From: a virus | Strand: one strand, 5' to 3' | DNA length: 64,000 nucleotides | IMG/VR virus record: IMGVR_UViG_3300010373_000004 | Location: 19,777 to 83,776 of that record | In this document: piece after piece, positions 14,515 to 30,593 of the stretch | Position numbering within the stretch: position 1 is the stretch's first letter | How the letters are laid out: each line of letters starts with the position of its first letter | Position numbers and translations under genes: made by a program | The notes under the pieces: generated by a model | Told to the model about the DNA's origin: nothing | What the model saw: the letters and a program-made list of their open reading frames with translations, nothing else | The model's database searches: none

Positions 14515-15139
14515 CTTCTAGTGCCTCTATCTGTGCCAAACGATCTTCTGGATTGTTGGCCTGGTGGAATTTAGCTGTTACTTGTTGTTGTGAAGCTGTT
14601 ATAGATTCTAAATTAGCTTCACCTGGGCGAATCGCCTCAAATGGATTCGTTTTATCTGGAAGGATTCCTACTGACTGCATGTGCTTTAACTTCTTTTCCC
14701 TGATCTCGGCTCTACCTTTAATAGCCGATAGCTTGACAGCCGAACCCTTCCCTGCTTCCTCTATGAAATCCGTAAGTGCTTTTAAGTCCTCATCATACCC
14801 AAATACACCAGCACCAACTAAATGGTCTGGATTCATGTGGCGAACTGATAATTTTGTGGTTAATAATTCACCAATTGAACGTTCGTCATACTTGGGAAAG
14901 CGATTACATAGCTGGCGGACTGATGCTCCGGCTACATATAGCTCAACAATCTTATTTTCTATCTTTTCAAGTTCTACTGCATATTCTTCTTCGGGAGTCA
15001 TAACTTGAAGATGTGTTTCTTGTTGAGCCTCTAAAGGATCATCAATGTCATCTGCCTCTTGTAATAGGGCTTCCAGGTCATTTTCGGAGGACATACTGGC
15101 AGAATACCTGATTTTGTTGACAATTGCAAGAGGGTACAT
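14492..15139 (-). CDS. terS: Putative terminase small subunit
   Basis: HTH-like (IVELYVAGASVRQLC) plus helical oligomerisation region; first gene of the packaging operon; start may be MSSEND. Confidence 0.55.
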   Translation of the reverse strand: MYPLAIVNKIRYSASMSSENDLEALLQEADDIDDPLEAQQETHLQVMTPEEEYAVELEKIENKIVELYVAGASVRQLCNRFPKYDERSIGELLTTKLSVRHMNPDHLVGAGVFGYDEDLKALTDFIEEAGKGSAVKLSAIKGRAEIREKKLKHMQSVGILPDKTNPFEAIRPGEANLESITASQQQVTAKFHQANNPEDRLAQIEALEGEFNVQD

Positions 15140-15165
15140 ATACTGATTGCTCCGCGCCGCCAGGT

Positions 15166-15520
15166 AAGTCCTATTAGTATCACTGTAAAAGCTGTAATCT
15201 TGACAGGCATGGTATAATTAAAGGTGAGAGATACTAACATAAAGGGAAGTCCTATTGGTATTCTAGAAATGAAAAATATAAATTTCTGGTTAGAATCATG
15301 CTTTTCTGCAAAATCTAATAATATTATTTTCAGAAAGGGGAGAAAATTCTTTGCGACACCAGTCCCCTCGGATTGTGGACGGCGCTATTAGGGCGCGGTA
15401 ACATGGGGTCTTAGGTAATACTAACATTTGTTGTTAGGTCGGGATAAACCACGATGTTAGGGGATGCTAATAATTGCGGTGAGGGTACTAATAGATTGGA
15501 AGTTAGCGTCCTATTACCGA
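15166..15520. repeat. Clustered direct and inverted copies of a (GTC)CTATTAGTAT / ATACTAA(C/T)A motif
   Basis: aagtcctattagtat 15166, gatactaacat 15230, aagtcctattggtat 15247, aatactaacat 15417, ggtactaatag 15484, gtcctattac 15508. Confidence 0.6.
15200..15218 (+). promoter_or_regulatory. Extended -10 promoter-like site with TTGACA only 7 bp upstream
   Basis: TTGACA-ggcaTGg-TATAAT. Confidence 0.5.
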
Positions 15521-15632
15521 CCAGGACCTATTTCCTATATGTTTTGGCAGTCGCCTATCACGCGCGATACTTCCCCTGGCGGCAGGAACCGCCACGAAAA
15601 AACGCATGCCTAAAAGGCAGGAGGGACTATCA

Positions 15633-16451
15633 ATGGCCACTGATAACGAATCCACAAACAATGAGACGGAAAGCACGCAAAGGGAACGCGTATGCCCGGT
15701 GAACGTCTACAAGAAGGGCCTTATTAAACCGTTCATTATCGGCAACGGTTTCATTACCGTATGGCCCACTTTCACGGTTGAAACTGCCAAGGAACAAACC
15801 GCCGAGGATATCCTGTCTGAGCGTTTCGCGGGAAAGGTTGATGCGCTCAAAACGGCAGGGGCATATGACGCCATATTGGAAATGATCAAGGGTGAGATTG
15901 CGGCCAGGAAGAATAGCGGCAGCAATAAGCTTCCCGAATCCATCAATGGTGACGATCTGAGGGCATTTCCAGCAGTGCGTATCTACTCGGCACTCGGGCG
16001 ATATGACCTGTCTGTGATGGCAGTCAATTCGGTATCGCAGGATGACACCGAAACCCTTACCGAATTCGCCGAGCTAATCATCCGTCGCATGAACGGCAAG
16101 GTTGCCTCCTCCGATTTTGCGGTGATGTGGAAGATCGAAACCCTTGAAGCGATGATCAAGATCGCGGGATGCGCAAAGCTGACTGCCGTGGAAATGAGCC
16201 AGGATGACAAAAAGGCTCGGGATAAGGCTCGCAAGGAAAAGGCAGACAAGATGATTGCTGATTGCGGTTTCACGGCCGACCAATTGAAGATCGATGCGAT
16301 CAAGAAGATCGTTACCGATGCTTCCCGAGAGGGCGAATCCGGGCAAGCTTTCACGGTTGAGGGCAAGTGGGACAATGACAAGCTTTGGGCAGAGGTGATC
16401 AAAGCGAATCCCCGTACTGCTGGCGCCAAGGAACCTGCTAATCAACAGTAG
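15633..16451 (+). CDS. First early gene, hypothetical protein, GC-rich coding
   Basis: GGAGG RBS before ATG 15633; 272 aa; followed by a strong hairpin. Confidence 0.75.
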   Translation: MATDNESTNNETESTQRERVCPVNVYKKGLIKPFIIGNGFITVWPTFTVETAKEQTAEDILSERFAGKVDALKTAGAYDAILEMIKGEIAARKNSGSNKLPESINGDDLRAFPAVRIYSALGRYDLSVMAVNSVSQDDTETLTEFAELIIRRMNGKVASSDFAVMWKIETLEAMIKIAGCAKLTAVEMSQDDKKARDKARKEKADKMIADCGFTADQLKIDAIKKIVTDASREGESGQAFTVEGKWDNDKLWAEVIKANPRTAGAKEPANQQ

Positions 16452-16493
16452 GAACAGTCGAAACAGGGAGTGTCTGAGCAGACTTACTGATAC

Positions 16494-16541
16494 GCCGAAA
16501 CGTGCCCTCCCATCGGCAACGGTGGGAGGGTTTCGGCATTT
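16494..16541 (+). terminator. Stable hairpin / putative terminator
   Basis: gccgaaa..ccctccca-tcg-gcaa-cgg-tgggaggg-tttcggc followed by attt. Confidence 0.55.
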
Positions 16542-16922
16542 CTGAGACATGAAAGACCTGGAAATACTTTACTTTCTAAAGTATCAATGCCGGCACGGTC
16601 TGAATACCCTACCAGGGTATCCTATGACTGATGCCCTCGTTTCATGCATGGGAAGCACCATAAGCGAGAGCTATCATTCCTGCCATTTTGAGGGCCATAC
16701 AGGCGATTTTCGGCGACGTCCGATAACTGATGCGTTGAGGGCTAGAATCGCCCGTAGAATCGGCTCAAATCAGGTTTGTATTATTGTCAAGTGGAGCACG
16801 GCGGTCGCCTGGCCAGAAAAGCGACCGGCCTTCATAAATAACATCAATGTTTTGGATTGTGTTATCTATGTGGGCGCTCTAGTCCTAGTCCACTAAAATC
16901 AAAAACAGAAAGGGAAGTCCTA

Positions 16923-17156
16923 ATGTCACTCGATCAACAATTGGCCGCATTCAGAACAGACTGGAGCAATGTCAATCGCAAATTGTCATTTGCGCAAAGG
17001 GATGGCCGTAAGTCTAAGACGGCTGAATTGTCCTTGCGAAAGACAATCATCGAGAACATGATCGAAAAGATTAATCTCGATATCAACAAGTGCATCGCAT
17101 CTAGCGACCACTCCAAAGCTTTCTGCAACAATTGCGGGATGCAGGTCGAACGATGA
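16923..17156 (+). CDS. Hypothetical early protein
   Basis: AAGGGA RBS, ATGA overlap with the next gene. Confidence 0.6.
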   Translation: MSLDQQLAAFRTDWSNVNRKLSFAQRDGRKSKTAELSLRKTIIENMIEKINLDINKCIASSDHSKAFCNNCGMQVER

Positions 17157-17335
17157 TCAAAATCAACGTCAAAGAAGTCACAAGCATAGGTGTTTCCCAC
17201 AACATCATCACCGTCACTGAACAACAAGCCATTGTTTTAATCAAAGCTTTGGTCGATGTGATGACTGGTGGTGAGAATATGATGGGCTCTCATCTGCCTG
17301 GACGCGATTTCGAGGTTTCAGTAGAGCGCAAATAA
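17153..17335 (+). CDS. Hypothetical early protein
   Basis: Coupled ORF ending immediately before the hammerhead. Confidence 0.55.
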   Translation: MIKINVKEVTSIGVSHNIITVTEQQAIVLIKALVDVMTGGENMMGSHLPGRDFEVSVERK

Positions 17336-17336
17336 C

Positions 17337-17408
17337 GTCGAAATTACTGGTGGTAAATAGCCGCCAGTAATATAGTGGATTGACATTCCACTACTGATGA
17401 GACTGTCA
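17337..17408 (+). ncRNA. Type II hammerhead ribozyme with stem-I-loop pseudoknot
   Basis: gtc-GAAA-stem III (ttactggtgg/ccgccagtaa)-UA cleavage after 17372-stem I (tagtgga/tccacta)-CUGAUGA-gac; loop tgaca pairs with 3' tgtca. Confidence 0.92.
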
Positions 17409-17430
17409 CAATTTAGCAGAAAGGACAATC

Positions 17431-18753
17431 ATGGCAGGTAGAAAGTGCGCTGAATGCGGTGGGCCGGGTCATAACTCGGCTACTTGCGGACAGTATGCAC
17501 ATTACAAATGTCCAGAATGTGGGCTTACATTTAGTAAATGGCCCGCTCCTAGGTGGCGCGCAGAGGCGTACTGCAAAGGTGACGAAGTAAATCCACACAA
17601 TGAAACAGAGGTTGTGGAATTCGACGGCCGCCCAACACCGAGCGCACGACCTACTAGCAATAGTGGATTCGACCTTGATAAATTAGTCGAGCAAATATCC
17701 ACTGCTGTAGTCGCCGCCAGTGGTTTGTCAAATGTTGAATATGACAAGCTACATAACTGGATCAAAGAAGAAGCGGATTCAAGACTGGAAGCGTATGATA
17801 CGCAGCATATCCAGCTTGTTAATGAACTGCGAGAGTTTACAAACACTCTCAATGATCTCCGCAACAAAGTAGCGGCTACACAAACTCACACCCACACTTT
17901 GCAACTGGCAGAGAATAAGGGTGAGTATAAGTTCGCTACTAATGAGGCGCCCTCTGCAATCTTGCAGGATTTGGTGAAGTATTACAAGATTCGCCAGCTT
18001 GCGATGATTTGGGGACCGTCGGGCAGTGGTAAATCATTCGCCGTCGAACAAGCCTACAAAGTAATTAAGGCTCAGTTCGGATTCAGTGATGATGAATTCA
18101 TCTTTGTACCACTGTCAATGACTCTTGGCATTAATGAGGCTGACCTTTATGGTCGCATGTTGCCGGATGGCTCATTTGTTGAGTCTAAGCTTTGTGTGGC
18201 CTATGAGAAAGGTGGGCTGGTGCTGTGGGATGAAATGGACGGTGCCGACCAAAACTTGTTACTTGTCATTAATAGGATTGTGGAGTATGACGATTTCTAC
18301 AACCCAAAGAACGGCAAGACTTACAAGAGACACAAAAACTTCCATTCATTTGCTGCAACCAACACAAACGGTCGTGGACCGACAGCAGCATACAATAGCC
18401 GCAATCGGCTAGATATGGCAACACTTACACGGTTCAACCAAGCTGTGTATCTCTCTTACAATGAAGATGTGGAGAGGGCCATTCTTTCCGATGAAACATT
18501 GCTGAATGTGGCATGGAAGATCAGAGAATATCTGATGAATAACAATGCACAGGAAGTAATGTCAACCCGACATATCCGGGATATCGCTAAAGGTCTGGCA
18601 GAATTCGATGCTAAGACTCTTTTTGAACGCATGATTTCTACGTGGGCTCCTAATCTGCGCGAGGGCATCGTGCGCCTGCCAGAGTGGGGATATCTCGCTG
18701 CATATAAGGCTAATGTAAATCTGGATTTTCTCTATGAAGAAGTCGAGAACTAG
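17431..18753 (+). CDS. MoxR/CobS-type AAA+ ATPase with N-terminal zinc fingers
   Basis: GPSGSGKS, LWDEMD, AATNT.G.G, RNRLDMATLTRF, MSTR; N-terminal CAECG..GH..TC and CPECG. Confidence 0.88.
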   Translation: MAGRKCAECGGPGHNSATCGQYAHYKCPECGLTFSKWPAPRWRAEAYCKGDEVNPHNETEVVEFDGRPTPSARPTSNSGFDLDKLVEQISTAVVAASGLSNVEYDKLHNWIKEEADSRLEAYDTQHIQLVNELREFTNTLNDLRNKVAATQTHTHTLQLAENKGEYKFATNEAPSAILQDLVKYYKIRQLAMIWGPSGSGKSFAVEQAYKVIKAQFGFSDDEFIFVPLSMTLGINEADLYGRMLPDGSFVESKLCVAYEKGGLVLWDEMDGADQNLLLVINRIVEYDDFYNPKNGKTYKRHKNFHSFAATNTNGRGPTAAYNSRNRLDMATLTRFNQAVYLSYNEDVERAILSDETLLNVAWKIREYLMNNNAQEVMSTRHIRDIAKGLAEFDAKTLFERMISTWAPNLREGIVRLPEWGYLAAYKANVNLDFLYEEVEN

Positions 18754-18994
18754 ATTTACCTGCCTCGATTGTGGCGTGGACACAAGCAGGATCGGGGAGT
18801 ATTATATGCTCTCCGATTCTACTTGGAGTCTAATACACAATAGCAATAAAGGCATGTTGTGTATTGGCTGCGCTGAAAATCGTTTAGGTCGCAAGCTGGT
18901 AGCATCCGACTTCCATGTTTGTACTCTCAACGATTTTCACCATAGCTGTTATATGCGTTCACAAAGATTAGTTGATAGGATGACTAATGGCTGA
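18734..18994 (+). CDS. Cys-rich phage protein
   Basis: CLDCG.DT...EYYM....W....LCIGC.E.RLGRKL pattern, common in phages. Confidence 0.65.
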   Translation: MKKSRTRFTCLDCGVDTSRIGEYYMLSDSTWSLIHNSNKGMLCIGCAENRLGRKLVASDFHVCTLNDFHHSCYMRSQRLVDRMTNG

Positions 18995-19832
18995 TTTTGA
19001 ATACGAACACACTCTCGAAGAAATAAAAGAGTGGGTTCGGAGCGATGATTTGCGGACGGCTATCAAATTAGATAGCAATAAGCGGAACATGGATTCAAAT
19101 GTCATACGGCCTAATGATCCATCATTCTATGGTGCATCATATAAAGAGTCCGTAAGACAGTTATTCGACGGTGTTGATAACTTCAATGATTGGTTGTCTA
19201 GTTCACCGCCGATGGACATTCCCACAAAATCAATCCGGCGCCGTCGTGTTTATAGCGATAGTTCTGGTGAGATTGATATGGACCGCCGATGGGATGATTA
19301 TCCTTTTGAAACATTCCATCATGTGCGCTTTGATAATCCGATTGTCAAGGTCTACATTAATGGTGGTTTTAGAGGGATGGTTCACCAACGCCATATAAAT
19401 GCGTATGGAATGAAGATTTATTCCATCATCAACGCATTAGAGACTGCGGGTAAGATGTGTGAGATTTATCTCTACTACAATACCCTCGGGATTACTGGTG
19501 GAAATGAACTCACATTCACAACAGTGAAGATTAAAGGTTCTGATGAATACGTGGACGGCAAAGTATTAGCTACATGTTTCACCAGTTTCTTCTATCGTCG
19601 TTTCATATTTGCTCTACGTATTAAGGATGCGGACAGCCGCAACGAAACAGCATCGTGGGGCATGGGTTCGTCACAACTTTATAAGCACACTCTTTTACAA
19701 ATATCAGAGGCAGGAGATACTATTTGGTTGGAGGCCACCGACCCGGCTAATTTTGATGGGTCCACATACACAAAGGCAGTCGATGAAATCCTAGAAAAGG
19801 TTATCAAAGGAAGGGACGAGATAAGCGAATGA
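18987..19832 (+). CDS. Putative vWA-like partner of the AAA+ ATPase
   Basis: GEIDMDR, I.ALE.AG...EI, FYRRFIF and WGMG motifs typical of phage CobT-like partners; adjacent to the AAA gene. Confidence 0.6.
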   Translation: MADFEYEHTLEEIKEWVRSDDLRTAIKLDSNKRNMDSNVIRPNDPSFYGASYKESVRQLFDGVDNFNDWLSSSPPMDIPTKSIRRRRVYSDSSGEIDMDRRWDDYPFETFHHVRFDNPIVKVYINGGFRGMVHQRHINAYGMKIYSIINALETAGKMCEIYLYYNTLGITGGNELTFTTVKIKGSDEYVDGKVLATCFTSFFYRRFIFALRIKDADSRNETASWGMGSSQLYKHTLLQISEAGDTIWLEATDPANFDGSTYTKAVDEILEKVIKGRDEISE

Positions 19833-20086
19833 AGGCAGTCACTATAACTGTTGCTTTCACAGCAACTGTGCCTGACGATGTGGAAACCGGGTATTTAGCT
19901 GTTGATTTAGATGTTGACAGAATAAAGCTTGTCAATCATCGGTTTAATTCTTTGTCTAGTGCTAATTGCATTAGTCATTTATCTCTGGAACCGTATCTAA
20001 TAGTCGAAACATATCTTGACAGCTATGTTAAGATATGTCTGTGGGAGTCGCCTACCTACACTGATGATGACAGGCGAGAAAGATAA
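19829..20086 (+). CDS. Hypothetical protein
   Basis: ATGA overlap with the upstream gene. Confidence 0.5.
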   Translation: MKAVTITVAFTATVPDDVETGYLAVDLDVDRIKLVNHRFNSLSSANCISHLSLEPYLIVETYLDSYVKICLWESPTYTDDDRRER

Positions 20087-20187
20087 AACAATTATCACTT
20101 TCTATGTTTCCAATAGGGAACAAGGTCGGGCCGTTCTGCGCATGCTCAATAAGATGCGCGTTAAGGCTTTCATTGTGAGGCCGTGTT

Positions 20188-20406
20188 ATGCCTAATCTCA
20201 CTGAATATCTGGATGCGACCATGCCAGATGTAATCGAGGAAGAACAACTGGAAGAAATGAATCGTGAAGTAACGATTATGCTTCCACCAATGGAAAAGAA
20301 GGATAGGCGTCCTAAGTGCAAGGTCTGCAATAAGACCAACATTTATGGTCGTACAATCAAATTTAGCTATTGCGAACAGCACTGGCCAATGAAAGCGGAA
20401 GGATAA
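20188..20406 (+). CDS. Small hypothetical Cys-containing protein
   Basis: GAGG RBS; CKVC...YCEQH. Confidence 0.5.
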   Translation: MPNLTEYLDATMPDVIEEEQLEEMNREVTIMLPPMEKKDRRPKCKVCNKTNIYGRTIKFSYCEQHWPMKAEG

Positions 20407-20653
20407 ACAAATGCCACGTAAGAACGGACCCACTCATAAGAGGAACGAACGCAAGTATAAGAATAAGAGTCGCCCAGCTTGTCCTGGTGGAAGTTGTGGC
20501 TCTCTTACATGCACTGTTTGTCGATCACCTTGGAACAATCGTAGTTCCAATAAGTAGACGCAGATGGGACTGGAGAGAAATCTCCAGTTTAATGCGGCAG
20601 TTCCGAATTCCAAAGCACGGAACAAATAACAACCGCAGAAGAAAGGAACAGTA

Positions 20654-21451
20654 ATGTTCTCAAACCTTCCTAAGACTCAAAAGACCGCGCAGGAGCAAGT
20701 GCTGGATGCTATGGCAGTCAGTCGTTTTGTTTTCCATCTGACAGGTTCTCGCTTTTTCGGAACTAATCGTGAGGACAGCGATTACGATTTCTTTGTCGAG
20801 GATGATCATTATTCGCCTTTCGTTGGAAATGTTCGCTCATGGCTCATAAGTGAGGCTTTCTATTTGATGGATAAGAGTGATTATCTGTCAACTGTTCAGG
20901 GCATCAATGATGTTTACCAGCATGTTAGTGCGAACATTCAGGTCCAGGTTGTTCAGGATGCTACTAAGAAGCAGCGCATTCAAGACGGGATCAAGAACAG
21001 TCCTGAATGCATGAACGTCATTAAGCAGTGTGACAAGTCTCGCAATAAGGGTTTGTGGGAAGCTCTTTACATCATGGATGCTTTCAAGCCTGCTCCAAAG
21101 ACTCCCGTAAACAAGATTCTCATGATCAAGAATGTTCGTGAGTTGTCTGGATGCGGATTGAAGGAGGCCAAGGATTTCGTTGAGGGAGTTTTGATTCCCA
21201 ATTTCAATGGAACGCCTGCAACAATGGAAGTAAACGCAACAAAGAGCGTTGTTCCTGTTGTGAATTCTTCTCCACTTCCAGTTATCGCATGTGGTCGTTG
21301 CGGACTGTCACTAACGCGGTTCGCCTGTTATCGACAAGATTACCGAAACAATAAGCCGCTGTGCTTTAATTGCTGGATTAATGAACGGACATATGTTGAT
21401 CCGATCTTTGTTTCAGACTGGATAAGCACACGCAACACAACCACCGTTTAG
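20654..21451 (+). CDS. Pol-beta-family nucleotidyltransferase fused to a ribosomal L7/L12 C-terminal-like domain and a zinc finger
   Basis: LTGSRFFG....SDYDF NTase motif; NKILMIKNVRELSGCGLKEAKDFVEG matches the bL12 CTD signature; CGRC...CFNC. Confidence 0.8.
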   Translation: MFSNLPKTQKTAQEQVLDAMAVSRFVFHLTGSRFFGTNREDSDYDFFVEDDHYSPFVGNVRSWLISEAFYLMDKSDYLSTVQGINDVYQHVSANIQVQVVQDATKKQRIQDGIKNSPECMNVIKQCDKSRNKGLWEALYIMDAFKPAPKTPVNKILMIKNVRELSGCGLKEAKDFVEGVLIPNFNGTPATMEVNATKSVVPVVNSSPLPVIACGRCGLSLTRFACYRQDYRNNKPLCFNCWINERTYVDPIFVSDWISTRNTTTV

Positions 21452-21524
21452 CAGAGTGGGCCGAGAGTTTAATCTCTCGGTTTAATGCGGTAAGGTCGTC
21501 ACAAGCCCGACCTAAATACAAACG
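21445..21524 (+). ncRNA. Twister ribozyme, type P5
   Basis: cgttt-AGCAGAGUGG-P1(gccgagag/ctctcggt)-U^AAUGCGGU-P4(aggtc/gacct) with UCACAAGC loop-aaacg; predicted cleavage 21483/21484. Confidence 0.88.
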
Positions 21525-21538
21525 CATTAGGAGTATTT

Positions 21539-21775
21539 ATGCTAGAGGAAGTTCTAGCGGCATCAGAGATTCAACTGAATATGTGCATTGAAAAAGGCAT
21601 CTATTCATTTGAGGATTTGATGAATCTGAGTCTGTGGGAGCGAGATACAGCTTATGCTTGTCATTTCCAGAGACAATTCGGAGTCCATTATCACAAAGCT
21701 GGCGTCCAGTACATCAAAGATGGTGCAAAGATGCCTCCGATAAATCCTGATAAGGAGATTGGTGATGCCTCTTGA
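21539..21775 (+). CDS. Hypothetical protein
   Basis: AGGAG RBS directly after the twister. Confidence 0.65.
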   Translation: MLEEVLAASEIQLNMCIEKGIYSFEDLMNLSLWERDTAYACHFQRQFGVHYHKAGVQYIKDGAKMPPINPDKEIGDAS

Positions 21776-22141
21776 TAAAGAGGGACAACGAATGATGAAG
21801 GATTACCTTGATGAATTAATCAAGGGAAACGTTATCACAATTCCGCGCGAAGTAAATGTTTTTCGCTCAATTTATGAGCGTGCTTATAACGACGGAAAAC
21901 AGATGCAGCGCATCCGTGAGAATCAACAACTGGAAGGATTGGAAATAGCTCTCGCATTAGTATGAGGACTTATACTTCTCATGAACTTGAAACCGATGTT
22001 CTCATTGATGAATATGAGGAAGATATCGTTGTCAAATGGAAGATTGATGGATTCCGAAAGCGTATGACATTCCGTGAAGGTATGGAGTGGACTGCACAAA
22101 CATATGTGGACACTGGCGAAAGCTTCCATCTAGTAAAGTAA

Positions 22142-22531
22142 ATGGCGAAGCAGAGTAGAAAGAGGTACGGTTTCGGCCGTGCAAGAGTAGTTCGAGAATT
22201 CCTTTACATGCTCCAAAGTGGTCGCTGCGCAAGATGCGGCGGTCAAATGCTGGCAGACAAAGTTTCTATTGATCATATCAAGCCTTGGAGCATCTACAAA
22301 AATGGTGATATCCGCAATTTATGTGCGATGCATCCACGATGTAACACTCGGAAGGGTGCTATGGAGATTGAGCCGCCATTTGTAGTGCATGTTTCCATGC
22401 AAGATTGGTTCGGATGGCTAGCAAAATGCTGGTCTAATGATCCAGATCGCTATTGGAGCCACAAAGAGCAAGAAAACATCTTCCAGCATAATAATTATAG
22501 GACGTGGTCGAGGCGTGCTATTGCTGGTTGA
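22142..22531 (+). CDS. HNH endonuclease
   Basis: CARCG...IDHIKP...NL...HPRCN.RKG. Confidence 0.85.
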   Translation: MAKQSRKRYGFGRARVVREFLYMLQSGRCARCGGQMLADKVSIDHIKPWSIYKNGDIRNLCAMHPRCNTRKGAMEIEPPFVVHVSMQDWFGWLAKCWSNDPDRYWSHKEQENIFQHNNYRTWSRRAIAG

Positions 22532-22631
22532 GTTTGTTGCGTGGGCTGTATTCACAGCAGGGTTAGCTGTTGCAATCCTGTTTTATGTGATGATAGTCAT
22601 TCGTAACCTAGTAAGAGAATTTATCCGCATT

Positions 22632-22667
22632 CGAGAAGAAAGAGAAGAAAGAGAAGAAAGAGAAGAA
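22632..22667 (+). repeat. 9-bp tandem repeat (AGAGAAGAA)x4 encoding REE repeats
   Basis: Directly visible. Confidence 0.85.
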
Positions 22668-23069
22668 TATGATTATAACGGCAGGTAAGCTGCGAGAACT
22701 GATTAGTGATGTGGAGAATGATGAGCTTCTTCATATCACCGCACACTCAATCACCATAAAGAAGGAACTCTTTAAGTCAGATACATCACATCTTGGACGA
22801 CCTACTGCTCCTAAGAAGTACGAGTCTTATGAAGAAAAGAAGCACGCTTTTCTGGAGGCCATCAATGGCTCCTATGAGTATGAGATTTTAAATAACACAG
22901 GAGGAAAGAATGATTAGGTGGGTATCTGCTATTTCTGGAGGAATACTGCTTTGTTTTCTACCAGAAATAGTTGATCAGTTTGTGTATCCAGTGTCTTATA
23001 CTGTAACAATGGCTACACTTATGGCGGCTCTCGGTCTTATTATTTGGCCATTTGTTGATTGGGTGCTAC

Positions 23070-23870
23070 ATGGCTGAAAAATTTGAGGTAGGAGATCATG
23101 TCTCCTTCAAAGGCTGGGAGAGATATAAGCGTTCTAGCCGCGAATTAGATGCATTGTCAGTGCTGCAATTAGTTCGTGGACAAGTAGAGCGCGTGGACAA
23201 AAAGACCATCATTGTTCGGTGGGGCGGTAATGTCTACAAACTAGACGCAGGTGATTTCGTTATAGAGAACCGGAAGGGTTTTCTAGCAGAAATGTATCCA
23301 GAAGAAATTGAAAAGGTGATAAATGAGTCCGTTACAGAGACAGTTGAAGATCAAGAAGTTGAGGACGAAGAAGTTGGAGAAAGTGAAGAAAATCAACCAA
23401 CTCCTACGGCACCTGAACGAAATCAACAAACAAATCAGCCAACTGGAAATGTCGAACAAATCGAGTTTCTCTCCAAGAACGCACTTAAGTTTGATCCAGC
23501 CAGCAAGATTTTCATAGGAACTGCCTATAAGAAAATCCGACTTCTAGACGGCACCTTCTATCAAGTGCAAGAAGGTAATGTTGTTGATGCAGCAATTGTC
23601 CAAGATGCTTTCAAGTTGTGGCGACTTGGCAAGGTTTGCTATGATCGTCTGAATATCCTGTTTAGAAATGGTCAACACTTTGGCCGTGTTGAAGATTTCT
23701 TGCGAGATATTCATCACTCATGGGAACGGTGGGGTTCATGGTCGCCAGGACAAGTAGCAGCTTGTTACAAGCATATCAATAAGTACCAAGACGAAATCAA
23801 GAGATTACAAAAGGATGATTACCGTTCCATAAAGAATGGATGGGGAGTCATCGAACCAAAGGATGAATAA
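23070..23870 (+). CDS. Hypothetical protein with SH3-like N-terminus and acidic linker
   Basis: FEVGDHV...GQVERVDKKTIIV; acidic central segment. Confidence 0.65.
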   Translation: MAEKFEVGDHVSFKGWERYKRSSRELDALSVLQLVRGQVERVDKKTIIVRWGGNVYKLDAGDFVIENRKGFLAEMYPEEIEKVINESVTETVEDQEVEDEEVGESEENQPTPTAPERNQQTNQPTGNVEQIEFLSKNALKFDPASKIFIGTAYKKIRLLDGTFYQVQEGNVVDAAIVQDAFKLWRLGKVCYDRLNILFRNGQHFGRVEDFLRDIHHSWERWGSWSPGQVAACYKHINKYQDEIKRLQKDDYRSIKNGWGVIEPKDE

Positions 23871-24030
23871 ATGACAGCTATAATTTCAGTAGTTATCTGC
23901 CTTGCAGGAAGCATTACTCTTTTGTGGGTTTTGCCTTTCATGATTGGCTACACAATAAATGAAGTTCGTAATTCCTTTATGTGTGGTCTTACAGGTATTC
24001 CCTCGTCGAGGCGTAAGCATCGGTAAATAA

Positions 24031-24414
24031 AGGTAAACATTTGTCAGTAGGTGCTAGAGGGCCGTTGGTCGAGCGTGATCAGCCCTCTAGACCACTACTA
24101 AATCCTGTTTGCAAAAGTAAAACAGTATCCAGTAGTGGTATTCCCTCCCTCCCTAGGACCGTAAGGATCGGTCACTATCGGTAAGAGAGAGGTAAATATG
24201 AAGGTAAACATCTGTAAGTATCGGTTAATTACATTTGCTTACACATGTTTACCCTCATATTTACCGTTCTTTTACCGATATTTACATCGTATTACGATAT
24301 ATCTCTCGACTCGTTTACGCTTAGAGGCTATGTATTCCCTCTGATAAGCAGGTGGTTATGTCTACCAGGGTATGTGCTCAGCGGAGGGTAAAATCGTGTT
24401 ACACATGTTTACCT
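24031..24414 (+). other. Large palindromic non-coding element (structured RNA or replication origin)
   Basis: No ORF; ~45-bp stem 24176-24280; closing pair aggtaaacat/atgtttacct; several further hairpins. Confidence 0.65.
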
Positions 24415-24658
24415 ATCTTGACACATGCTCTCCAGTCGGCATACCATAGAGCCGAGGGAGCGCGCCTGGAAGTCCTATAAATAGAAATTGAAAGGGTAGT
24501 AATGTCAGTTAGAAAACCAGAAGATGAACAACCTTCTTGGATACTTAGAACACGCAGCTTTAAAAGAGCAGTTATGTCAGATGCTCGCCATAATAGGCTG
24601 CGCCCACCAGAGAAAAAGAGAATTTTTGCTAAACATTTTTGTCGAATAGTGTGGTGGA

Positions 24659-25054
24659 ATGATTAACGCCAACTTTATTCGTCGTGTTGAAAACAATCCA
24701 CGAAACATTCAATCAATAGATTTATACATTCCGCAGACAACACTCAAAATCGAGTGGCCAGAATATGCTAGTCATTTCATGTTGAATAACATTTCTGGTT
24801 TTTCAGATTGGTTTGCGACAACTGTCACAGACATTGTGTCTGATGATAACTTTTGGGAAGAAATCTATTATATTCCTTCTAATATTCCTAACGGTCGAGC
24901 ATGTTGGCTAACACTAGTCAATAGACTTAGAAAAGAAACAGGTCGTCCAGTCATTACTTTTGAAGAAGATGAGTGGATGACGTTTCTATGGAATATGACT
25001 GGTACACGAAAACATCAAGATTGGAGAAATATGTGGCTATCCAAAGTTGGGTAA
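24659..25054 (+). CDS. Hypothetical protein
   Basis: 131 aa coupled ORF. Confidence 0.6.
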   Translation: MINANFIRRVENNPRNIQSIDLYIPQTTLKIEWPEYASHFMLNNISGFSDWFATTVTDIVSDDNFWEEIYYIPSNIPNGRACWLTLVNRLRKETGRPVITFEEDEWMTFLWNMTGTRKHQDWRNMWLSKVG

Positions 25055-25548
25055 ATGAAGATACACTTATTCTTCTTCACCAGATGGGCATCGACTCTAA
25101 CCACAAGTTAAAAGAATTAGCTAAAACATACATTAGTCGGCGTCCATCAAATTCAATTCATGGTCTAGATGTTTTCTCTCCCAGGTATTTCTTCTTAGTC
25201 GCAGCGACTATTGATGAAGGAACTACCCAAGAACTCGTAGATCGAGCAGTTTATCTTTATCTTTCTCATTGGAAGCAAAATAATACTGATGTTCAGCGAG
25301 GATTGCAACAATTCAACACTCTAGTCGTTGCTGACTTGCGGCGATATTGTGAGCGTCATCCAGATTTTGTTAAATTCAATAACAATAGTCCTAAGTTCTC
25401 AGTCTCTCTAGTCGATAAAGAGTTTTCGTGGGAAGATTTTGAAAGAGCAAACGGAGAGCCTCTTATAGATTTGTATGCACACTGCAAAGATAAAGAACCA
25501 GAATTAAACGAAGTTCCAGATTGGAGTTGGACGGAAGAAAATGATTAA
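24973..25548 (+). CDS. Hypothetical protein
   Basis: ORF in operon; true start probably near 25033. Confidence 0.6.
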   Translation: MDDVSMEYDWYTKTSRLEKYVAIQSWVNEDTLILLHQMGIDSNHKLKELAKTYISRRPSNSIHGLDVFSPRYFFLVAATIDEGTTQELVDRAVYLYLSHWKQNNTDVQRGLQQFNTLVVADLRRYCERHPDFVKFNNNSPKFSVSLVDKEFSWEDFERANGEPLIDLYAHCKDKEPELNEVPDWSWTEEND

Positions 25549-25776
25549 GGTGCCAGAAATTTGTCCTTGTGCGCCACTTAGAGAAGAAAGACGTTGGGTT
25601 AATTCTGACAGTAACACAGGACTTCACGGACAAGGTACAGGACATATTGAACTTACTACTGCGCCAGGTTATCATGAATGGAGATATGGTGGATACAAAT
25701 CAACAATCGCAAGTACATATGATTGGTTTTACTGTATTTATTGCTTAGAAAGAAAATCAGTGTAATACCTTTAGTC

Positions 25777-25805
25777 TTGACAAGGTATTCCCTTTGTGGT
25801 ACAAT
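25777..25805 (+). promoter_or_regulatory. Sigma70-type promoter
   Basis: TTGACA-17-TACAAT with TG extension; ATG follows 7 nt later (possibly leaderless). Confidence 0.75.
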
Positions 25806-25812
25806 AGCGCGC

Positions 25813-25989
25813 ATGGAGAATCTTACATTTCCGCTGCGCGCTAAGATTGCTCCGTCAGTAATGAAATCTATAGATGACATTGCAGATGATTTTGGTTTAA
25901 ATCGTTCGGAAGCAATAAGGGCAGCTTTAAAACTGTTTATCAAACTAAGTGGAAAGCTTACACAGGAGCAAATACAAAAGTTGATTTGA
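25813..25989 (+). CDS. Ribbon-helix-helix (CopG-like) regulator
   Basis: IDDIADDFGLNRSEAIRAAL. Confidence 0.8.
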   Translation: MENLTFPLRAKIAPSVMKSIDDIADDFGLNRSEAIRAALKLFIKLSGKLTQEQIQKLI

Positions 25990-26202
25990 AATGGCCATTA
26001 ATTTCTCAGGAATTACAATGAAGTGGTCAGGTAATTTCGTAGAATTCTACACTAGATTGTTTTGTCCTGAGTGTACGAAAATAACTCCGTGTGCATTCAG
26101 AAGTAACAAGTCATTTTTAGGAATAGAATGTCTAGAATGTAAATATATTGTTATGTCTACAGTAATGAACGGAGAGCGCATCGTGAAGATGTTTCAAGAT
26201 AC

Positions 26203-26664
26203 GTGAACCTAAAAGTATTTAGTGACGGCGGCTCTAAGGGAAATCCAGGGCCGTCTGGTTACGGTGTGGTTATTCGTGATGATGCGAAAAATACGCTCTG
26301 CACATTCGGTAATTTTATTGGCATTACAGGCAATAATATTGCTGAATATGTAGGAGCTATTATGGCATTACGAAAAGCTGCTGAATTTGAAGCTGAATCT
26401 GTCCAGCTTTTCTCAGATTCACAATTAGTTGTTTGCCAAGTCAATGGTTTGTACCGCGTGCATCCAAAGTACGCGCCATACTATAGGATGCTTCTTGAAT
26501 TGAAAGAGAAGTTGGCAGCTACTGTTGATTGGATACCAAGAGGCGCTAATCAATTAGCAGATAAGGAATGTGATTATGCCATTCGAAAACGAGTTACGTG
26601 TGACCCAAGAGGAATCCCAAACGATCCTTTCTCAAATCCGTGCATCGTTTCATTCGCGGCCTAG
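26203..26664 (+). CDS. rnhA: Ribonuclease HI (archaeal/actinobacterial type)
   Basis: SDGGSKGNPGPSGYG, NNIAEY, SDSQLVV, WIPR..N..AD. Confidence 0.92.
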   Translation: MNLKVFSDGGSKGNPGPSGYGVVIRDDAKNTLCTFGNFIGITGNNIAEYVGAIMALRKAAEFEAESVQLFSDSQLVVCQVNGLYRVHPKYAPYYRMLLELKEKLAATVDWIPRGANQLADKECDYAIRKRVTCDPRGIPNDPFSNPCIVSFAA

Positions 26665-27188
26665 CCACACGTTAGATAAAAGTATTTTAGATGAAAAAGG
26701 ATGCTGCAAGTTTTGCGGAATGCCCAAAATAGAAGCGAAATGGGAAAAGCGAAAATTGCAGTGTAATTGGCCGTATGGCAATTTATGAGGTAGAGCACAC
26801 TAATTGGGTAGCAGTCAGAGAATATACACTGGTTGATGCTGATTCTAAGGAAGAAGCACAACGTATATTTGAAGATAGATATGACGCCCATGCGATGGAA
26901 TGGCCGCATGCTGTTCCAGAATTTATAAATGTCCAGGTGGATAACGTTGAAAGATATCCACTTAAGAATGCAAAAAATCTTGATGCTTTTGAGATACTAG
27001 ATTGAGTAGAATGATACTCATTGATGATCTGCCATTGTTGGAGCACAATGAGGTAAAAGAATACACAGATGATAAGGCTGTGGTTCTTAAATACATGCTT
27101 ATTCGTCAACAACACCCAATGTGGCATGTTGCAGTCGTGCCGTTTGAACCTGAAAACAAATTCAACTGCCAAAAGATAGGAACCAATC

Positions 27189-28070
27189 GTGCCAACAGAG
27201 TTACCCAAGCTAGCGACACTCCAGCCGGATAAAAATGATCCGACTTTTCCAACAAATCATGAGGCTTATATCTATGAGCCAAAGTTTGATGGAATCAGAA
27301 CGCTAGTTTACTTCAACGGTGAAGATATTAAACTGGTTTCTAGAACAGAAAAGAATGTAGATGTATCAATTAAGTTTAGAAATGCAGTCACCGAACAGCT
27401 TAAGAATACAGGCTGCCGCAACGCGATCATTGATTGCGAACTTATTGCCATTGATACTGAACACCTTACCGGAAATTTCGAGGCTTTACAAAATCGAAAG
27501 CGCTATCCTTGTATCCTACAATTACGGGCATTTGATGTGCTCTATTACAACGGAGTGGATATTAGAGGGTACTCTACAATGGAGCGGAAAAAGGTTCTCG
27601 CAGCGAAATTCGACATTAAAAGTGTCCCATTCAAATTGGTCCCATTCGCTGACTCAGTTGATGGACTCCCTGTCTACTCCAACATTGAAGGACATGTTGC
27701 TAAGCAACGTAAAGCTAAATATGAGAGTGGACGACAGCGAACTTGGGTCAAAATTAAACCCTTCGAAACAGAGATTGTACGAGTCACTGGATACATCGAG
27801 GGTTTGGGAAAGTTCGAGAATAATGTCGGCGCGTTAAACATCGAATGGATCATCGTTGATCCAAAAACTAAAGAAATCTCAACAAAAGATGCAGGTCAAG
27901 TAGGGAGTTTTCACATTGATGATTCTAAGCGCAAAGAAATCTGGGATAAGATTCAACTCATGGGCGAAAAGTTTAAACCATTTTTCGCAGAAGTTTATTA
28001 TCTTAGAAAGACAGCAGCAGGCAAGATTTATCACGGAGTATTTCTCAGAGAAGTAGAATTAGATGTTTAA
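27189..28070 (+). CDS. ATP-dependent DNA ligase
   Basis: YEPKFDGIR, IIDCE, AFDVL, EG.VAK, WVKIK. Confidence 0.92.
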   Translation: MPTELPKLATLQPDKNDPTFPTNHEAYIYEPKFDGIRTLVYFNGEDIKLVSRTEKNVDVSIKFRNAVTEQLKNTGCRNAIIDCELIAIDTEHLTGNFEALQNRKRYPCILQLRAFDVLYYNGVDIRGYSTMERKKVLAAKFDIKSVPFKLVPFADSVDGLPVYSNIEGHVAKQRKAKYESGRQRTWVKIKPFETEIVRVTGYIEGLGKFENNVGALNIEWIIVDPKTKEISTKDAGQVGSFHIDDSKRKEIWDKIQLMGEKFKPFFAEVYYLRKTAAGKIYHGVFLREVELDV

Positions 28071-30271: not shown

Positions 30272-30348
30272 TTGGGGATTAAGATCAGTCAGGTAGATGG
30301 CTCGGCCTGGAACCGAGAGGTCGCGAGTTCGAATCTCGCATCCCCAAC
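30272..30348 (+). tRNA. tRNA-Pro(UGG)
   Basis: Cloverleaf; ctcgg-CC TGG AA-ccgag; GTTCGAATC. Confidence 0.9.
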
Positions 30349-30591: not shown

Positions 30592-30593
30592 AT

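What the first reader, a model, noticed from the sequence alone, without database searches (positions are those of the whole stretch)
20654..21451. Nucleotidyltransferase fused to a ribosomal L7/L12 C-terminal domain
Seen: an N-terminal GS..DxD Pol-beta NTase, then NKILMIKNVRELSGCGLKEAKDFVE, then a C4 zinc finger. Known: the bL12 CTD surface (KI.VIK.VR..TGLGLKEAK..VE) recruits EF-Tu, EF-G, IF2 and RF3, and phages carry bL12-like domains. Inference: a bait-and-modify enzyme that nucleotidylates translation GTPases or their bound tRNA during takeover.
Basis: partly seen in the sequence, partly recalled or inferred. Interest (0 to 1): 0.75.

Follow-up and report, generated by a model that had tools for sequence, protein, structure and literature searches.

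The report
Phage nucleotidyltransferase carrying a ribosomal-stalk hairpin
An uncultured phage encodes a small enzyme of the nucleotide-transferring kind joined to a 28-residue copy of the part of ribosomal protein L7/L12 that grips translation factors, a new form of a known class of phage proteins whose function has not been tested.

Summary
ORF 20654-21451 (+, 265 aa) is a real gene of a complete 83.8-kb phage genome.

- **Residues 11-141:** a confidently modelled Pol-beta-fold minimal nucleotidyltransferase with the exact GS-X10-DXD motif of MntA-type protein adenylyltransferases.
- **Residues 152-180:** these match Pfam Ribosomal_L12 above its cut-off, but only profile positions 10-37 of 67. 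That is helices 4 and 5, not a whole L12 C-terminal domain.
- **Tail:** CxxC-X20-CxxC is present, but it has no relatives and is poorly modelled.

The two-helix piece is a portable module. It ends 7 other phage NTase homologues and occurs as 2-6 copies in non-ribosomal proteins.

"Bait-and-modify of translation GTPases" remains an inference (my odds about 0.3). No binding or activity was shown. The third catalytic position is Gln here, and 2 of 9 fused relatives lose the Lys70-equivalent.

Phage proteins with embedded bL12 domains were published in 2019 (PMC6375957), and this scan has met such fusions before on other DNA. This is therefore a new variant of a known kind.

In passing: the gene is bracketed by two twister-P5 ribozyme matches.

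The parts
20559..20620 (+). Upstream Twister-P5 ribozyme candidate (context, not part of the protein)
   Evidence: Rfam RF02684, 37.1 bits, just under the gathering score of 37.6, E 4.3e-5 in a 6.5-kb scan, full model 1-58. It starts 2 nt after the stop of the 48-aa ORF 20411-20557.
20643..20647 (+). Shine-Dalgarno-like AAGGA, 6 nt before the ATG
   Evidence: Read directly from the sequence.
20654..21451 (+). Whole ORF, 265 aa (P0001), including the TAG stop at 21449-21451
   Evidence: ORF list. The identical protein is in the collection, and there is one 53%-identical homologue, P0002. It is the only copy in its own genome.
20684..21076 (+). Minimal Pol-beta-fold nucleotidyltransferase domain, residues 11-141
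   Evidence: AF2 block pLDDT is 90-97 over most of residues 11-140, with dips to 70 and 76 in blocks 51-60 and 71-80. VIA-align gives GrpB domains Z 7.6 and 7.2, CCA-adding enzyme Z 6.4, MenT1 Z 5.3, and nearly all 50 rows are NTase-fold proteins. 18 of 60 relatives hit Pfam NTP_transf_2 at E<=0.01.
20744..20788 (+). Catalytic signature G31-S32-X10-D43-x-D45
   Evidence: Sequence. Conserved in 119 of 119 N-domain relatives, allowing E for the first acid in one; X10 spacing in 116 of 119. It has the same form as the MntA motif GSX10DXD (PMC7641770).
20939..20941 (+). Gln96, on strand 95-100, where relatives have His (59), Asp (41) or Gln (10) of 111. This is the candidate third metal-ligand position.
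   Evidence: Column counts; strand assignment. That this column is the third-carboxylate site is my inference.
21107..21193 (+). bL12 helix 4-helix 5 hairpin module, residues 152-180
   Evidence: Pfam PF00542 32.2 bits versus cut-off 25.9, profile positions 10-37 of 67. bL12 chains in PDB. AF2 helices 154-165 and 169-180, block pLDDT 86-92.
21194..21289 (+). Pro/Asn/Val-rich linker, residues 181-212, predicted disordered
   Evidence: Block pLDDT 42-60 and no secondary structure.
21290..21373 (+). Cys cluster C213xxC216 ... C225 ... C237xxC240, a possible zinc ribbon or knuckle
   Evidence: Sequence. No Pfam hit even at E<=10, no homologue of residues 186-265, no paralogue in its own genome, pLDDT 50-61.
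21450..21510 (+). Downstream Twister-P5 ribozyme abutting the stop codon (context)
   Evidence: Rfam RF02684, 39.7 bits, above the gathering score of 37.6, full model 1-58.

Best explanation
Shown: this is a non-structural gene of an uncultured tailed phage. Its product joins three parts:
1. a minimal Pol-beta-type nucleotidyltransferase with an intact GS-X10-DXD signature;
2. a self-standing two-helix copy of helices 4-5 of ribosomal stalk protein bL12;
3. an orphan Cys-rich tail.

Inferred: the hairpin acts as a targeting peptide. It brings the transferase to whatever normally docks on that face of bL12, most likely a translational GTPase (EF-Tu, EF-G, IF2 or RF3), alone or with its bound tRNA. 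The transferase then adds a nucleotide monophosphate (AMP by analogy with MntA) to that protein or to the nearby RNA end. This would adjust or shut down host translation while the phage brings its own 26 tRNAs.

The anatomy is near certain (about 0.9). The mechanism is a hypothesis.
For: **Anatomy.**
- NTase fold and motif.
- bL12 helices 4-5 above the Pfam cut-off.

**The hairpin is an autonomous, selected module.**
- Seven other NTase homologues (P0005, P0008, P0022, P0042, P0077, P0090, P0103) carry it at or near their very C-terminus, several ending 2-9 residues after it.
- 31 non-NTase proteins among the best 150 representatives carry 101 copies of it, separated by Pro-rich linkers.

**Pattern of conservation.**
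- In the 101 stand-alone copies, the equivalents of K65 (90 of 101), I66 (89), I69 (93), K70 (93) and R73 (98) stay almost invariant.
- The equivalents of V68 and L78 relax. V68 is V in 53 of 57 real bL12 but A in 72 of 101 copies. L78 is L in 57 of 57 real bL12 but L in 53 of 101 copies. L86 looks relaxed too (L in 28 of 101), but its invariance in the real-bL12 sample is forced by the search patterns.
- This is what I would expect if the face that packs on the missing rest of the domain is freed while another face is kept.

**Literature.**
- Helices 4 and 5 are the named EF-Tu contact (title of Kothe 2004, seen in the reference lists of PMC3299993 and PMC3505967).
- Mizuno 2019 states that phage bL12 domains keep the residues that contact EF-G and EF-Tu (PMC6375957, passage).
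- GS-X10-DXD minimal NTases can modify proteins: MntA adds AMP to a Tyr of HepT (PMC7641770).
- All 4 stand-alone relatives tested give their best NCBIfam hit to MntA (E 0.014-0.049, far under the cut-off).

**Setting.** The gene lies in the + strand non-structural arm, upstream of a 26-tRNA array.
Against: - No binding and no catalysis was shown by any search.
- The protein itself scores below Pfam's cut-offs for NTase families: NTP_transf_2 13.7 bits versus 21, Polbeta 11.9 versus 26.9.
- Fold matches are middling. The best Z is 7.6, and the tool warns that Z under 8 can be a common arrangement. No Foldseek PDB match reaches E<=0.001.
- Residue 96 is Gln where 100 of 111 relatives have His or Asp, so this copy could be weakly active or inactive.
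- Two of 9 alignable fused relatives have lost the Lys70-equivalent (Glu in P0002, Gly in P0005), and P0002 has Lys for Arg73.
- Only 28 of 67 domain positions are present, so the fragment may not present the bL12 surface in the same shape.
- About 109 of 119 family members work without any hairpin, so the core function does not need it.
- The conservation counts come from sequences chosen for similarity to the query or by motif patterns, which inflates them.
Confidence: 0.3

Rival explanations
1. Counter-defence or antitoxin-like protein adenylyltransferase. Like MntA, the minimal NTase AMPylates and silences a host toxin or defence effector (for example a HEPN RNase). The hairpin and Cys tail are lineage-specific specificity add-ons that need have nothing to do with translation factors.
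For: - The motif is exactly GS-X10-DXD, the MntA signature (PMC7641770).
- A profile of 60 relatives has as its only PDB sequence hit an MNT antitoxin (7ae2, E 0.03).
- All 4 stand-alone relatives tested have MntA as their best NCBIfam hit.
- The family is phage-borne, and one 144-kb viral contig has 7 tandem paralogues (L003), a pattern common for arms-race genes (my knowledge).
Against: - All MntA hits are 13.5-15.3 bits against a cut-off of 60.
- No HEPN or other conserved partner gene lies next to family members in 12 viral loci and the window.
- Neighbours in the window have no HEPN hit.
- No PADLOC hit for 6 members.
- This reading leaves the strong conservation of the bL12-like face unexplained.
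Confidence: 0.25
2. RNA 3'-end nucleotidyltransferase. The enzyme adds nucleotides to tRNA or other RNA ends (MenT-like blocking, or CCA-like repair). The hairpin and the Cys tail serve as RNA- or ribosome-proximal binding parts.
For: - Fold rows include the CCA-adding enzyme (Z 6.4), MenT1 toxin (Z 5.3), TUTases and poly(A) polymerases.
- MenT toxins extend tRNA acceptor ends (abstracts of PMC10435456 and PMC7450476).
- The phage carries 26 tRNAs and at least one self-cleaving ribozyme next to the gene, so RNA-end chemistry matters to it.
- Lys65 of the bL12 GANK motif was cross-linked to a tRNA analogue (abstract of PMC6110070).
Against: - At about 130 residues the catalytic domain lacks the neck, body and tail or other RNA-binding domains of known RNA NTases (my knowledge).
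- The Z scores are no better than those for non-RNA NTases such as GrpB (7.6, 7.2) and LinB (5.0).
- No DUF1814/MenT sequence hit.
Confidence: 0.15
3. Small-molecule or unknown-substrate NTase of the GrpB or antibiotic-NTase type. The hairpin is merely a structural, dimerisation or solubility cap kept for folding reasons.
For: - The top structural rows are GrpB domains (6n39 C-terminal domain Z 7.6; 2nrk Z 7.2), and LinB, ANT(2'') and LnuA also appear.
- The family strand motif [IV]-[HD]-[VI]-Q resembles the His-containing strand I recall for GrpB (recalled, not tested).
- Most members (about 109 of 119) have no hairpin.
Against: - No Pfam GrpB hit in any of the 60 members at E<=0.01.
- The hairpin's charged, exposed positions are conserved far more than a simple cap would need.
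- The same module is reused in unrelated proteins.
Confidence: 0.15
4. Decoy. The protein works mainly by titration. The free bL12-like hairpin competes with ribosomal bL12 for translation factors, or with factors for a bL12-binding partner, and the NTase domain is a degenerate scaffold.
For: - Gln96 replaces the His or Asp of most relatives.
- Mizuno 2019 proposed that viral bL12-domain proteins provide interfaces for factors (PMC6375957).
Against: - GS and DxD are intact, which is unexpected for a dead scaffold.
- A single low-affinity hairpin is unlikely to out-compete four to six stalk copies per ribosome (my knowledge).
Confidence: 0.1

Closest known systems
Virus-encoded bL12-domain proteins (Mizuno et al. 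2019, Nat Commun 10:752, PMC6375957; passages read)
   Same: A phage protein with a PF00542 match embedded in a larger, otherwise unrelated polypeptide. The factor-contacting residues are kept and the function is untested.
   Different: Here only helices 4-5 are present (28 of 67 profile positions), not a whole C-terminal domain. The partner is a minimal NTase, a word that does not occur in that paper's main text. Its supplementary figures, which list architectures, were not open to me.
Bacterial ribosomal protein bL12 (L7/L12), C-terminal domain (PF00542; PDB 1ctf, 1dd3)
   Same: 16 of 29 residues are identical to E. coli and 19 of 31 to T. maritima over helices 4-5 (my counts from the alignments). 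The equivalents of K65, I69, K70, R73, G79, L80, K81, E82, A83, K84, D85, V87 and E88 are all present.
   Different: There is no N-terminal uL10-binding domain and none of the strands or helix 6 of the C-terminal domain. TIGR00855 scores 25.2 bits against a cut-off of 84.4. It cannot be a stalk protein.
MntA, the minimal nucleotidyltransferase antitoxin of type VII HepT/MntA systems (PMC7641770)
   Same: About 130-residue Pol-beta-fold domain with the exact GS-X10-DXD signature. It is the nearest sequence family for stand-alone relatives.
   Different: Scores are far below the family cut-off. There is no HEPN partner gene. The gene is phage-encoded and fused to other modules.
GrpB / UPF0157 domain (PDB 2nrk; C-terminal domain of mycobacterial CoaE, 6n39)
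   Same: Best structural superposition: Z 7.6 over 131 residues and Z 7.2 over 122 residues.
   Different: 6-12% identity, no Pfam GrpB hit, and GrpB's own biochemical function is not established. The abstract of PMC2765170 describes only a folding role.
Non-ribosomal bacterial proteins with tandem bL12-like hairpins (for example P0004 and P0007, labelled 'ribosomal protein L7/L12' by their source; NCBIfam NF005269 PRK06771 'hypothetical protein')
   Same: The same roughly 28-residue module is used outside the ribosome.
   Different: Those are membrane-anchored arrays of 3-4 copies without an enzyme domain. They are uncharacterised.

Membership tests
Pol-beta superfamily minimal nucleotidyltransferase (Pfam clan of NTP_transf_2 / Polbeta) | hG[GS] motif at the strand-helix turn | tested here: met
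   L29-T30-G31-S32. G and S are present in 119 of 119 N-domain relatives, which were picked with a motif pattern.
Pol-beta superfamily minimal nucleotidyltransferase (Pfam clan of NTP_transf_2 / Polbeta) | [DE]x[DE] metal-binding pair on the next strand | tested here: met
   D43-Y-D45 on strand 44-49. Conserved in 119 of 119, with E for the first acid in one.
Pol-beta superfamily minimal nucleotidyltransferase (Pfam clan of NTP_transf_2 / Polbeta) | Third carboxylate on a neighbouring strand | tested here: inconclusive
   The candidate column 96 is Q here, against H 59, D 41 and Q 10 of 111. D102 (D 75, N 27) is an alternative. No coordinates were available to decide.
Pol-beta superfamily minimal nucleotidyltransferase (Pfam clan of NTP_transf_2 / Polbeta) | Alpha/beta NTase fold | tested here: met
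   The AF2 N-domain has block pLDDT 90-97 over most of residues 11-140, with dips to 70 and 76. Nearly all of the 50 VIA-align rows are NTase-fold proteins, but the best Z is only 7.6. Foldseek PDB rows are all NTases, but at E>=0.027.
Pol-beta superfamily minimal nucleotidyltransferase (Pfam clan of NTP_transf_2 / Polbeta) | Score above the Pfam gathering threshold | tested here: not met
   NTP_transf_2 13.7 bits versus 21; Polbeta 11.9 versus 26.9. 18 and 9 of 60 relatives reach E<=0.01. It is a divergent family inside the fold, not a member of these Pfam models by score.
Ribosomal protein bL12 C-terminal domain (PF00542) | Sequence match above the gathering threshold | tested here: met
   32.2 bits versus 25.9. 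The six-frame search of its own genome gives 33.1 bits.
Ribosomal protein bL12 C-terminal domain (PF00542) | Complete domain of about 67 residues (strands plus helices 4, 5 and 6) | tested here: not met
   Only profile positions 10-37 of 67 align. The model has two helices and then disorder. Fused relatives end just after helix 5.
Ribosomal protein bL12, full protein (TIGR00855) | N-terminal uL10-binding dimerisation domain and the equivalog score | tested here: not met
   25.2 bits versus a cut-off of 84.4; only model positions 69-95 of 125 align.
Virus-encoded bL12-domain proteins (Mizuno 2019) | PF00542-matching segment in a protein of a viral genome, lacking the ribosome anchor | tested here: met
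   Virus record with direct terminal repeats, rated 100% complete. Terminase, portal, DNA polymerase and primase are present. PF00542 hit.
Virus-encoded bL12-domain proteins (Mizuno 2019) | Association with ribosomes or factors | not testable with these tools
   This needs biochemistry.
MntA antitoxin (NF047752; type VII TA) | GSX10DXD motif | tested here: met
   G31-S32, ten residues, D43-x-D45. X10 in 116 of 119 relatives. Motif as defined in PMC7641770.
MntA antitoxin (NF047752; type VII TA) | Family score and an adjacent HEPN (RX4HXY) toxin gene | tested here: not met
   No NF047752 hit for P0001 at E<=0.1. All 4 stand-alone relatives tested score 13.5-15.3 bits against a cut-off of 60. 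There is no conserved neighbour and no HEPN hit in neighbours.
MenT / DUF1814 tRNA nucleotidyltransferase toxins | Fold and sequence membership | tested here: inconclusive
   MenT1 8an4: Z 5.3, 90 residues aligned, rmsd 3.6. No sequence hit.
C4 zinc ribbon / zinc finger | Two CxxC knuckles in a recognised family or a confident fold | tested here: inconclusive
   C213xxC216 and C237xxC240 are present. No Pfam match at E<=10, no relatives, pLDDT 50-61.

The most novel reading that the evidence does not exclude
The 28-residue bL12 helix 4-5 hairpin is a portable docking peptide for translational GTPases. Evolution has pasted it onto unrelated proteins: phage NTases, and membrane-anchored arrays in bacteria. 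In this phage it would aim an MntA-like AMP-transferase at EF-Tu, EF-G, IF2 or RF3, or at the tRNA they carry. That would be a previously undescribed way for a virus to rewire host translation by nucleotidylation.
Probability: 0.15. Interest if true: 0.8.

Novelty: new variant of a known kind. Interest (0 to 1): 0.5.

Why it matters
If the hairpin alone does bind translation factors, it would be the smallest known transferable factor-recruiting unit. It would explain why bL12 pieces turn up in so many phage and bacterial proteins. It would also give a direct handle for finding what these proteins act on: peptide pull-downs and point mutants.

Coupled to an intact GS-X10-DXD transferase, it would point to enzymatic marking of the translation apparatus by a phage.

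If it does not bind factors, the finding is still a clean description of three things:
- a large, uncharacterised, phage-borne family of minimal NTases;
- a reusable two-helix module;
- a gene flanked by two twister-P5 matches.

Tried and rejected
**1. Co-folding.** I co-folded residues 141-190 (alignment A1) with Swiss-Prot EFTU1_ECOLI. The tool's verdict was 'no answer' (score 0.02, mark 0.32; controls not run). It counts neither for nor against binding.

**2. Known phages.** megablast of 19000-23000 and tblastn of the protein against 50,697 phage records gave no match. The terminase is only about 24% identical to SPO1-like Bacillus phages, so no host could be named.

**3. Origin of the fusions.** I asked whether the hairpin fusions arose once or several times, using a tree of 119 N-domains. 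The careful search did not finish, so the quick tree was used. It needs 7 changes, but its well-supported branches force only 1. The question is unresolved.

**4. Conserved partner gene.** An all-against-all BLAST of ORFs from 12 viral loci plus window 14001-28000 found none shared between unrelated loci.

**5. Downstream 78-aa ORF 21539-21775.** It contains R-x4-H-Y, which made me consider a mini-HEPN partner. There is no Pfam hit at E<=10, no PHROG hit, and the Atlas gives only unnamed clusters and a poor model. I rejected it as probably chance.

**6. The Cys tail.** No relatives in near or shorter length classes and no paralogue in its own genome.

**7. Defence libraries.** PADLOC gave no hit for 6 members. 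In PHROGs, only 3 of 60 relatives touch phrog_388.

**8. Genome scan with P0004.** This mostly returned ordinary rplL genes. 78 of 80 loci had a single hairpin by my strict pattern. Only L014 and L015 showed non-ribosomal multi-hairpin proteins.

**9. Literature.** I found no paper describing an NTase-bL12 fusion. Specifically, one search gave 4 papers, of which I checked one (PMC7344957) and found it unrelated; one search showed no 'nucleotidyltransferase' in the main text of Mizuno 2019.

**10. Hammerheads.** Earlier first-reader notes place hammerhead ribozymes at 16457-16548 and 17337-17408. Rfam gave no hammerhead match at E<=1 in 16000-22500.
Full report
**1. What is at the coordinates**

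The ORF 20654..21451 (+) exists exactly as described and encodes 265 residues. An AAGGA lies 6 nt before its ATG.

The window is bases 19777-83776 of an 83,776-base virus record with direct terminal repeats, rated 100% complete. It encodes a large terminase, portal, ribonucleotide reductase, primase, DNA polymerase and helicase, and 26 tRNAs.

The gene lies in the + strand non-structural arm, between a CobS-like AAA ATPase with a DUF7192 protein upstream and an HNH endonuclease downstream. No known phage is close. There is no nucleotide or protein match for this region or gene in 50,697 phage records. The terminase is about 24% identical to SPO1-like phages.

**2. The N-terminal domain**

An exhaustive HMMER search of 1.84 billion representatives gave 686 hits at E<=0.001, of which I could see the best 150. 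By motif, 119 of these 150 carry the N-domain. Most are stand-alone proteins of about 125-170 residues.

Conservation in the N-domain:
- In an alignment of 111 of them, T30, G31, S32, S42, D43, D45 and W135 are invariant. F27, R33, F35, Y77, Q98, K106 and Q110 are nearly so.
- The remaining 8 also have GS and [DE]xD.
- The selection used a motif pattern, so part of this invariance is built in.
- The spacing is exactly GS-X10-[DE]xD in 116 of 119. This is the signature that MntA needs to add AMP to a tyrosine of HepT (PMC7641770, passages read).

Sequence family hits:
- By itself the protein hits NTase models only weakly: NTP_transf_2 E 0.082, Polbeta E 0.26, phrog_388 E 0.04.
- 18 of 60 relatives reach NTP_transf_2 and 9 of 60 reach Polbeta at E<=0.01.
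- A profile of the 60 finds one PDB sequence, an MNT antitoxin (7ae2, E 0.03).
- All 4 stand-alone relatives tested have MntA as their best NCBIfam hit, at 13.5-15.3 bits against a cut-off of 60.

Structure:
- AlphaFold2 with the 60-row alignment models most of residues 11-141 at block pLDDT 90-97, with dips to 70 and 76. The strand-helix-strand order is that of a Pol-beta NTase.
- Foldseek against PDB gave no match at E<=0.001, but its rows are GrpB, TUTases, LinB, CCA-adding enzymes, CD-NTases, OAS and poly(A) polymerases.
- VIA-align against 48,161 chains gave GrpB domains at Z 7.6 (131 aligned, rmsd 3.9) and Z 7.2 (122, rmsd 4.4). The CCA-adding enzyme is at Z 6.4 and MenT1 at Z 5.3. Nearly all 50 rows are NTase-fold proteins. 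The tool notes that Z under 8 is middling.
- BFVD gave one match at E<=0.001 and many uncharacterised phage proteins of 130-180 residues.
- The ESM Atlas structure rows are again NTases, at TM 0.35-0.44.

I conclude that this is a divergent, mostly phage-borne branch of minimal NTases. It is absent from PHROGs, where 3 of 60 relatives touch phrog_388.

One caveat on activity: on strand 95-100 the column that is His (59) or Asp (41) in 111 relatives is Gln in this protein and 9 others. That this column is the third metal ligand is my inference.

**3. The middle segment**

Residues 152-179 match Pfam Ribosomal_L12 at 32.2 bits (cut-off 25.9, E 1.3e-7), but only profile positions 10-37 of 67. The same is found by a six-frame search of the phage genome, and it is the only such segment there.

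phmmer against PDB lists 14 bL12 chains among 16 hits. The alignment to the 120-residue E. coli chain puts query 151-179 on residues 62-90. This is the GANK motif, helix 4, the TGLGL turn and helix 5.

By my count from the printed alignments, 16 of 29 residues are identical to E. coli and 19 of 31 to T. maritima. The equivalents of K65, I69, K70, R73, G79-D85, V87 and E88 are all there.

The AF2 model shows two helices (154-165 and 169-180, pLDDT 86-92) followed by a disordered Pro/Asn-rich stretch. Nothing corresponds to the strands or helix 6 of the C-terminal domain. The full-protein model TIGR00855 scores 25.2 bits against a cut-off of 84.4.

So the segment is homologous to bL12, but it is a fragment.

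**4. The fragment is a module in its own right**

- Seven other N-domain proteins (P0005, P0008, P0022, P0042, P0077, P0090, P0103) and the nearest homologue P0002 carry the same hairpin after the NTase. Two more (P0101, P0053) have degenerate versions. Several end 2-9 residues after helix 5. P0005 lies on a 109-kb viral contig (L002).
- The other 31 of the best 150 hits are non-NTase proteins holding 101 copies of the hairpin. These are typically an N-terminal membrane helix followed by 3-4 copies separated by Pro/Ala/Ser linkers.
- Their sources call them 'ribosomal protein L7/L12'. P0004 also matches NCBIfam NF005269 'hypothetical protein' four times.
- In bacterial genomes, L014 (Caldilineaceae MAG) encodes a 493-residue protein with a CxxC...CxxC start, two hairpins, a membrane segment and a large C-terminal domain. 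L015 (Acaryochloris MAG) encodes a membrane helix plus two hairpins.

**5. What the conservation pattern says**

I compared three samples:
- 57 real bL12 proteins (taken from loci; positions 81-88 are fixed by the search patterns and say nothing);
- the 101 stand-alone copies (positions 79-84 fixed by my anchor pattern);
- the 10 fused copies.

The free positions behave in two ways:
- The equivalents of K65, I66, I69, K70, V72, R73 and T76 stay nearly invariant in the stand-alone copies: 90, 89, 93, 93, 69, 98 and 93 of 101.
- V68 (V in 53 of 57 bL12) becomes Ala in 72 of 101. L78 (57 of 57) drops to 53 of 101. L86 is L in only 28 of 101 copies, but its invariance in the bL12 sample is forced by the search patterns.

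This fits loss of the packing face towards the missing sheet and helix 6, with retention of another face.

Helices 4 and 5 are the published EF-Tu contact. I saw only the titles of Kothe et al. 2004 and Helgstrand et al. 2007, in reference lists. Which individual residues matter is recalled, not read.

Against a strict reading: among the 9 alignable fused copies the K70-equivalent is K in 7 (Glu in P0002, Gly in P0005), and the R73-equivalent is R in 8. All samples are biased towards similarity to the query.

**6. The tail**

C213xxC216, C225 and C237xxC240 are present. There is no Pfam hit even at E<=10. Residues 186-265 have no relative in near or shorter length classes and no paralogue in the phage. 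pLDDT is 37-61.

P0002, at 207 residues, has no such tail.

A zinc knuckle or ribbon is plausible but unproven. Several small neighbouring ORFs also carry CxxC pairs.

**7. Context**

No gene is consistently next to family members in 12 viral loci and the window, so this is not a two-gene toxin-antitoxin-like unit. One 144-kb viral contig (L003) has seven tandem paralogues of the N-domain. PADLOC has no match.

Whether the hairpin was fused once or several times is unresolved. The quick tree needs 7 changes, its strong branches force only 1, and the careful search did not finish. Linker lengths differ: about 10 residues here and in P0090, and about 40 in P0005, P0008 and P0042.

**8. Mechanism**

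What is shown is the anatomy. What I infer is that the hairpin aims an MntA-like NMP-transferase at a partner of the bL12 head, most likely a translational GTPase or its tRNA cargo. I put this at about 0.3.

The rivals are:
- an MntA-like counter-defence adenylyltransferase with unrelated add-ons (0.25);
- an RNA-end transferase (0.15);
- a GrpB-like or small-molecule enzyme with a structural cap (0.15);
- a decoy (0.1).

**9. Comparison with what is known, and novelty**

Phage proteins with bL12 domains embedded in larger polypeptides, acquired repeatedly and keeping factor-contact residues, were described in 2019 (PMC6375957; passages). That main text does not mention nucleotidyltransferases. 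My other searches found no description of this fusion or of the two-helix module as such. Supplements were closed.

This scan has already reported bL12-domain fusions on other DNA. Fifteen notes hold the search words; the 8 shown all concern non-ribosomal bL12-domain proteins, with partners such as RadA-like ATPase, rIIB and coiled coils.

The new points here are:
- the minimal two-helix form;
- its recurrence on a phage NTase family with an MntA-type motif;
- its reuse in tandem arrays.

I rate it a new variant of a known kind, interest 0.5.

**10. Seen in passing**

Rfam finds a Twister-P5 ribozyme at 21450-21510, above the gathering score (39.7 versus 37.6 bits). It begins inside the gene's stop codon. 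A second full-length match lies at 20559-20620, just under the threshold (37.1 bits, E 4.3e-5), 34 nt before the start codon. The two differ in the sequence of the long hairpin stem, yet both can pair (alignments).

If both cleave, the gene with its ribosome-binding site would be released as a transcript of about 0.9 kb of its own. Cleavage was not tested.

Noticed in passing
window 20559-20620 (+) and 21450-21510 (+): Two Twister-P5 (RF02684) matches bracket the gene. The downstream one is above the gathering score (39.7 bits). The upstream one is just below it (37.1 versus 37.6 bits, E 4.3e-5) and appears in none of the 8 earlier notes I was shown for this genome (22 fit the look-up). The upstream one starts 2 nt after the stop of a 48-aa Cys-rich ORF (20411-20557).
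   Followed up: partly
window 16457-16548 and 17337-17408: Earlier first-reader notes place hammerhead ribozymes here. An Rfam scan of 16000-22500 at E<=1 returned only the two twisters and no hammerhead family.
   Followed up: partly
L003:1651-6485 (144-kb IMG/VR contig): Seven tandem paralogues of the stand-alone minimal NTase domain lie on one strand. This is a local gene-family expansion.
   Followed up: partly
proteins P0003, P0004, P0007, P0010, P0012; L014:2869-4350; L015:2662-3342: Non-ribosomal proteins built from 2-6 tandem bL12 helix 4-5 hairpins, often behind an N-terminal membrane helix. L014 (Caldilineaceae MAG) combines a CxxC...CxxC start, two hairpins, a membrane segment and a large C-terminal domain. 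P0004 matches NCBIfam NF005269 'hypothetical protein' four times.
   Followed up: partly
protein P0129 (179 aa): An apparent genuine bL12, with its N-terminal domain, in which the helix 4-5 region and the following segment are duplicated in tandem.
   Followed up: no
window 17431-19832 (+): A CobS/MoxR-like AAA ATPase (phrog_249, E 4.5e-41; Pfam AAA_5) with an N-terminal Cys-rich extension, followed by a small phrog_6053 protein and a DUF7192 protein.
   Followed up: no
window 30273-42003 (+): A tRNA array. ARAGORN finds 26 tRNAs. Rfam lists 25, including one at 34053-34126 that ARAGORN does not report, while ARAGORN reports His (31599) and Ile (34211), which are absent from the Rfam list.
   Followed up: no
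window 21539-21775 (+): The 78-aa ORF just after the downstream twister contains R-x4-H-Y, but has no HEPN or other family support.
   Followed up: yes
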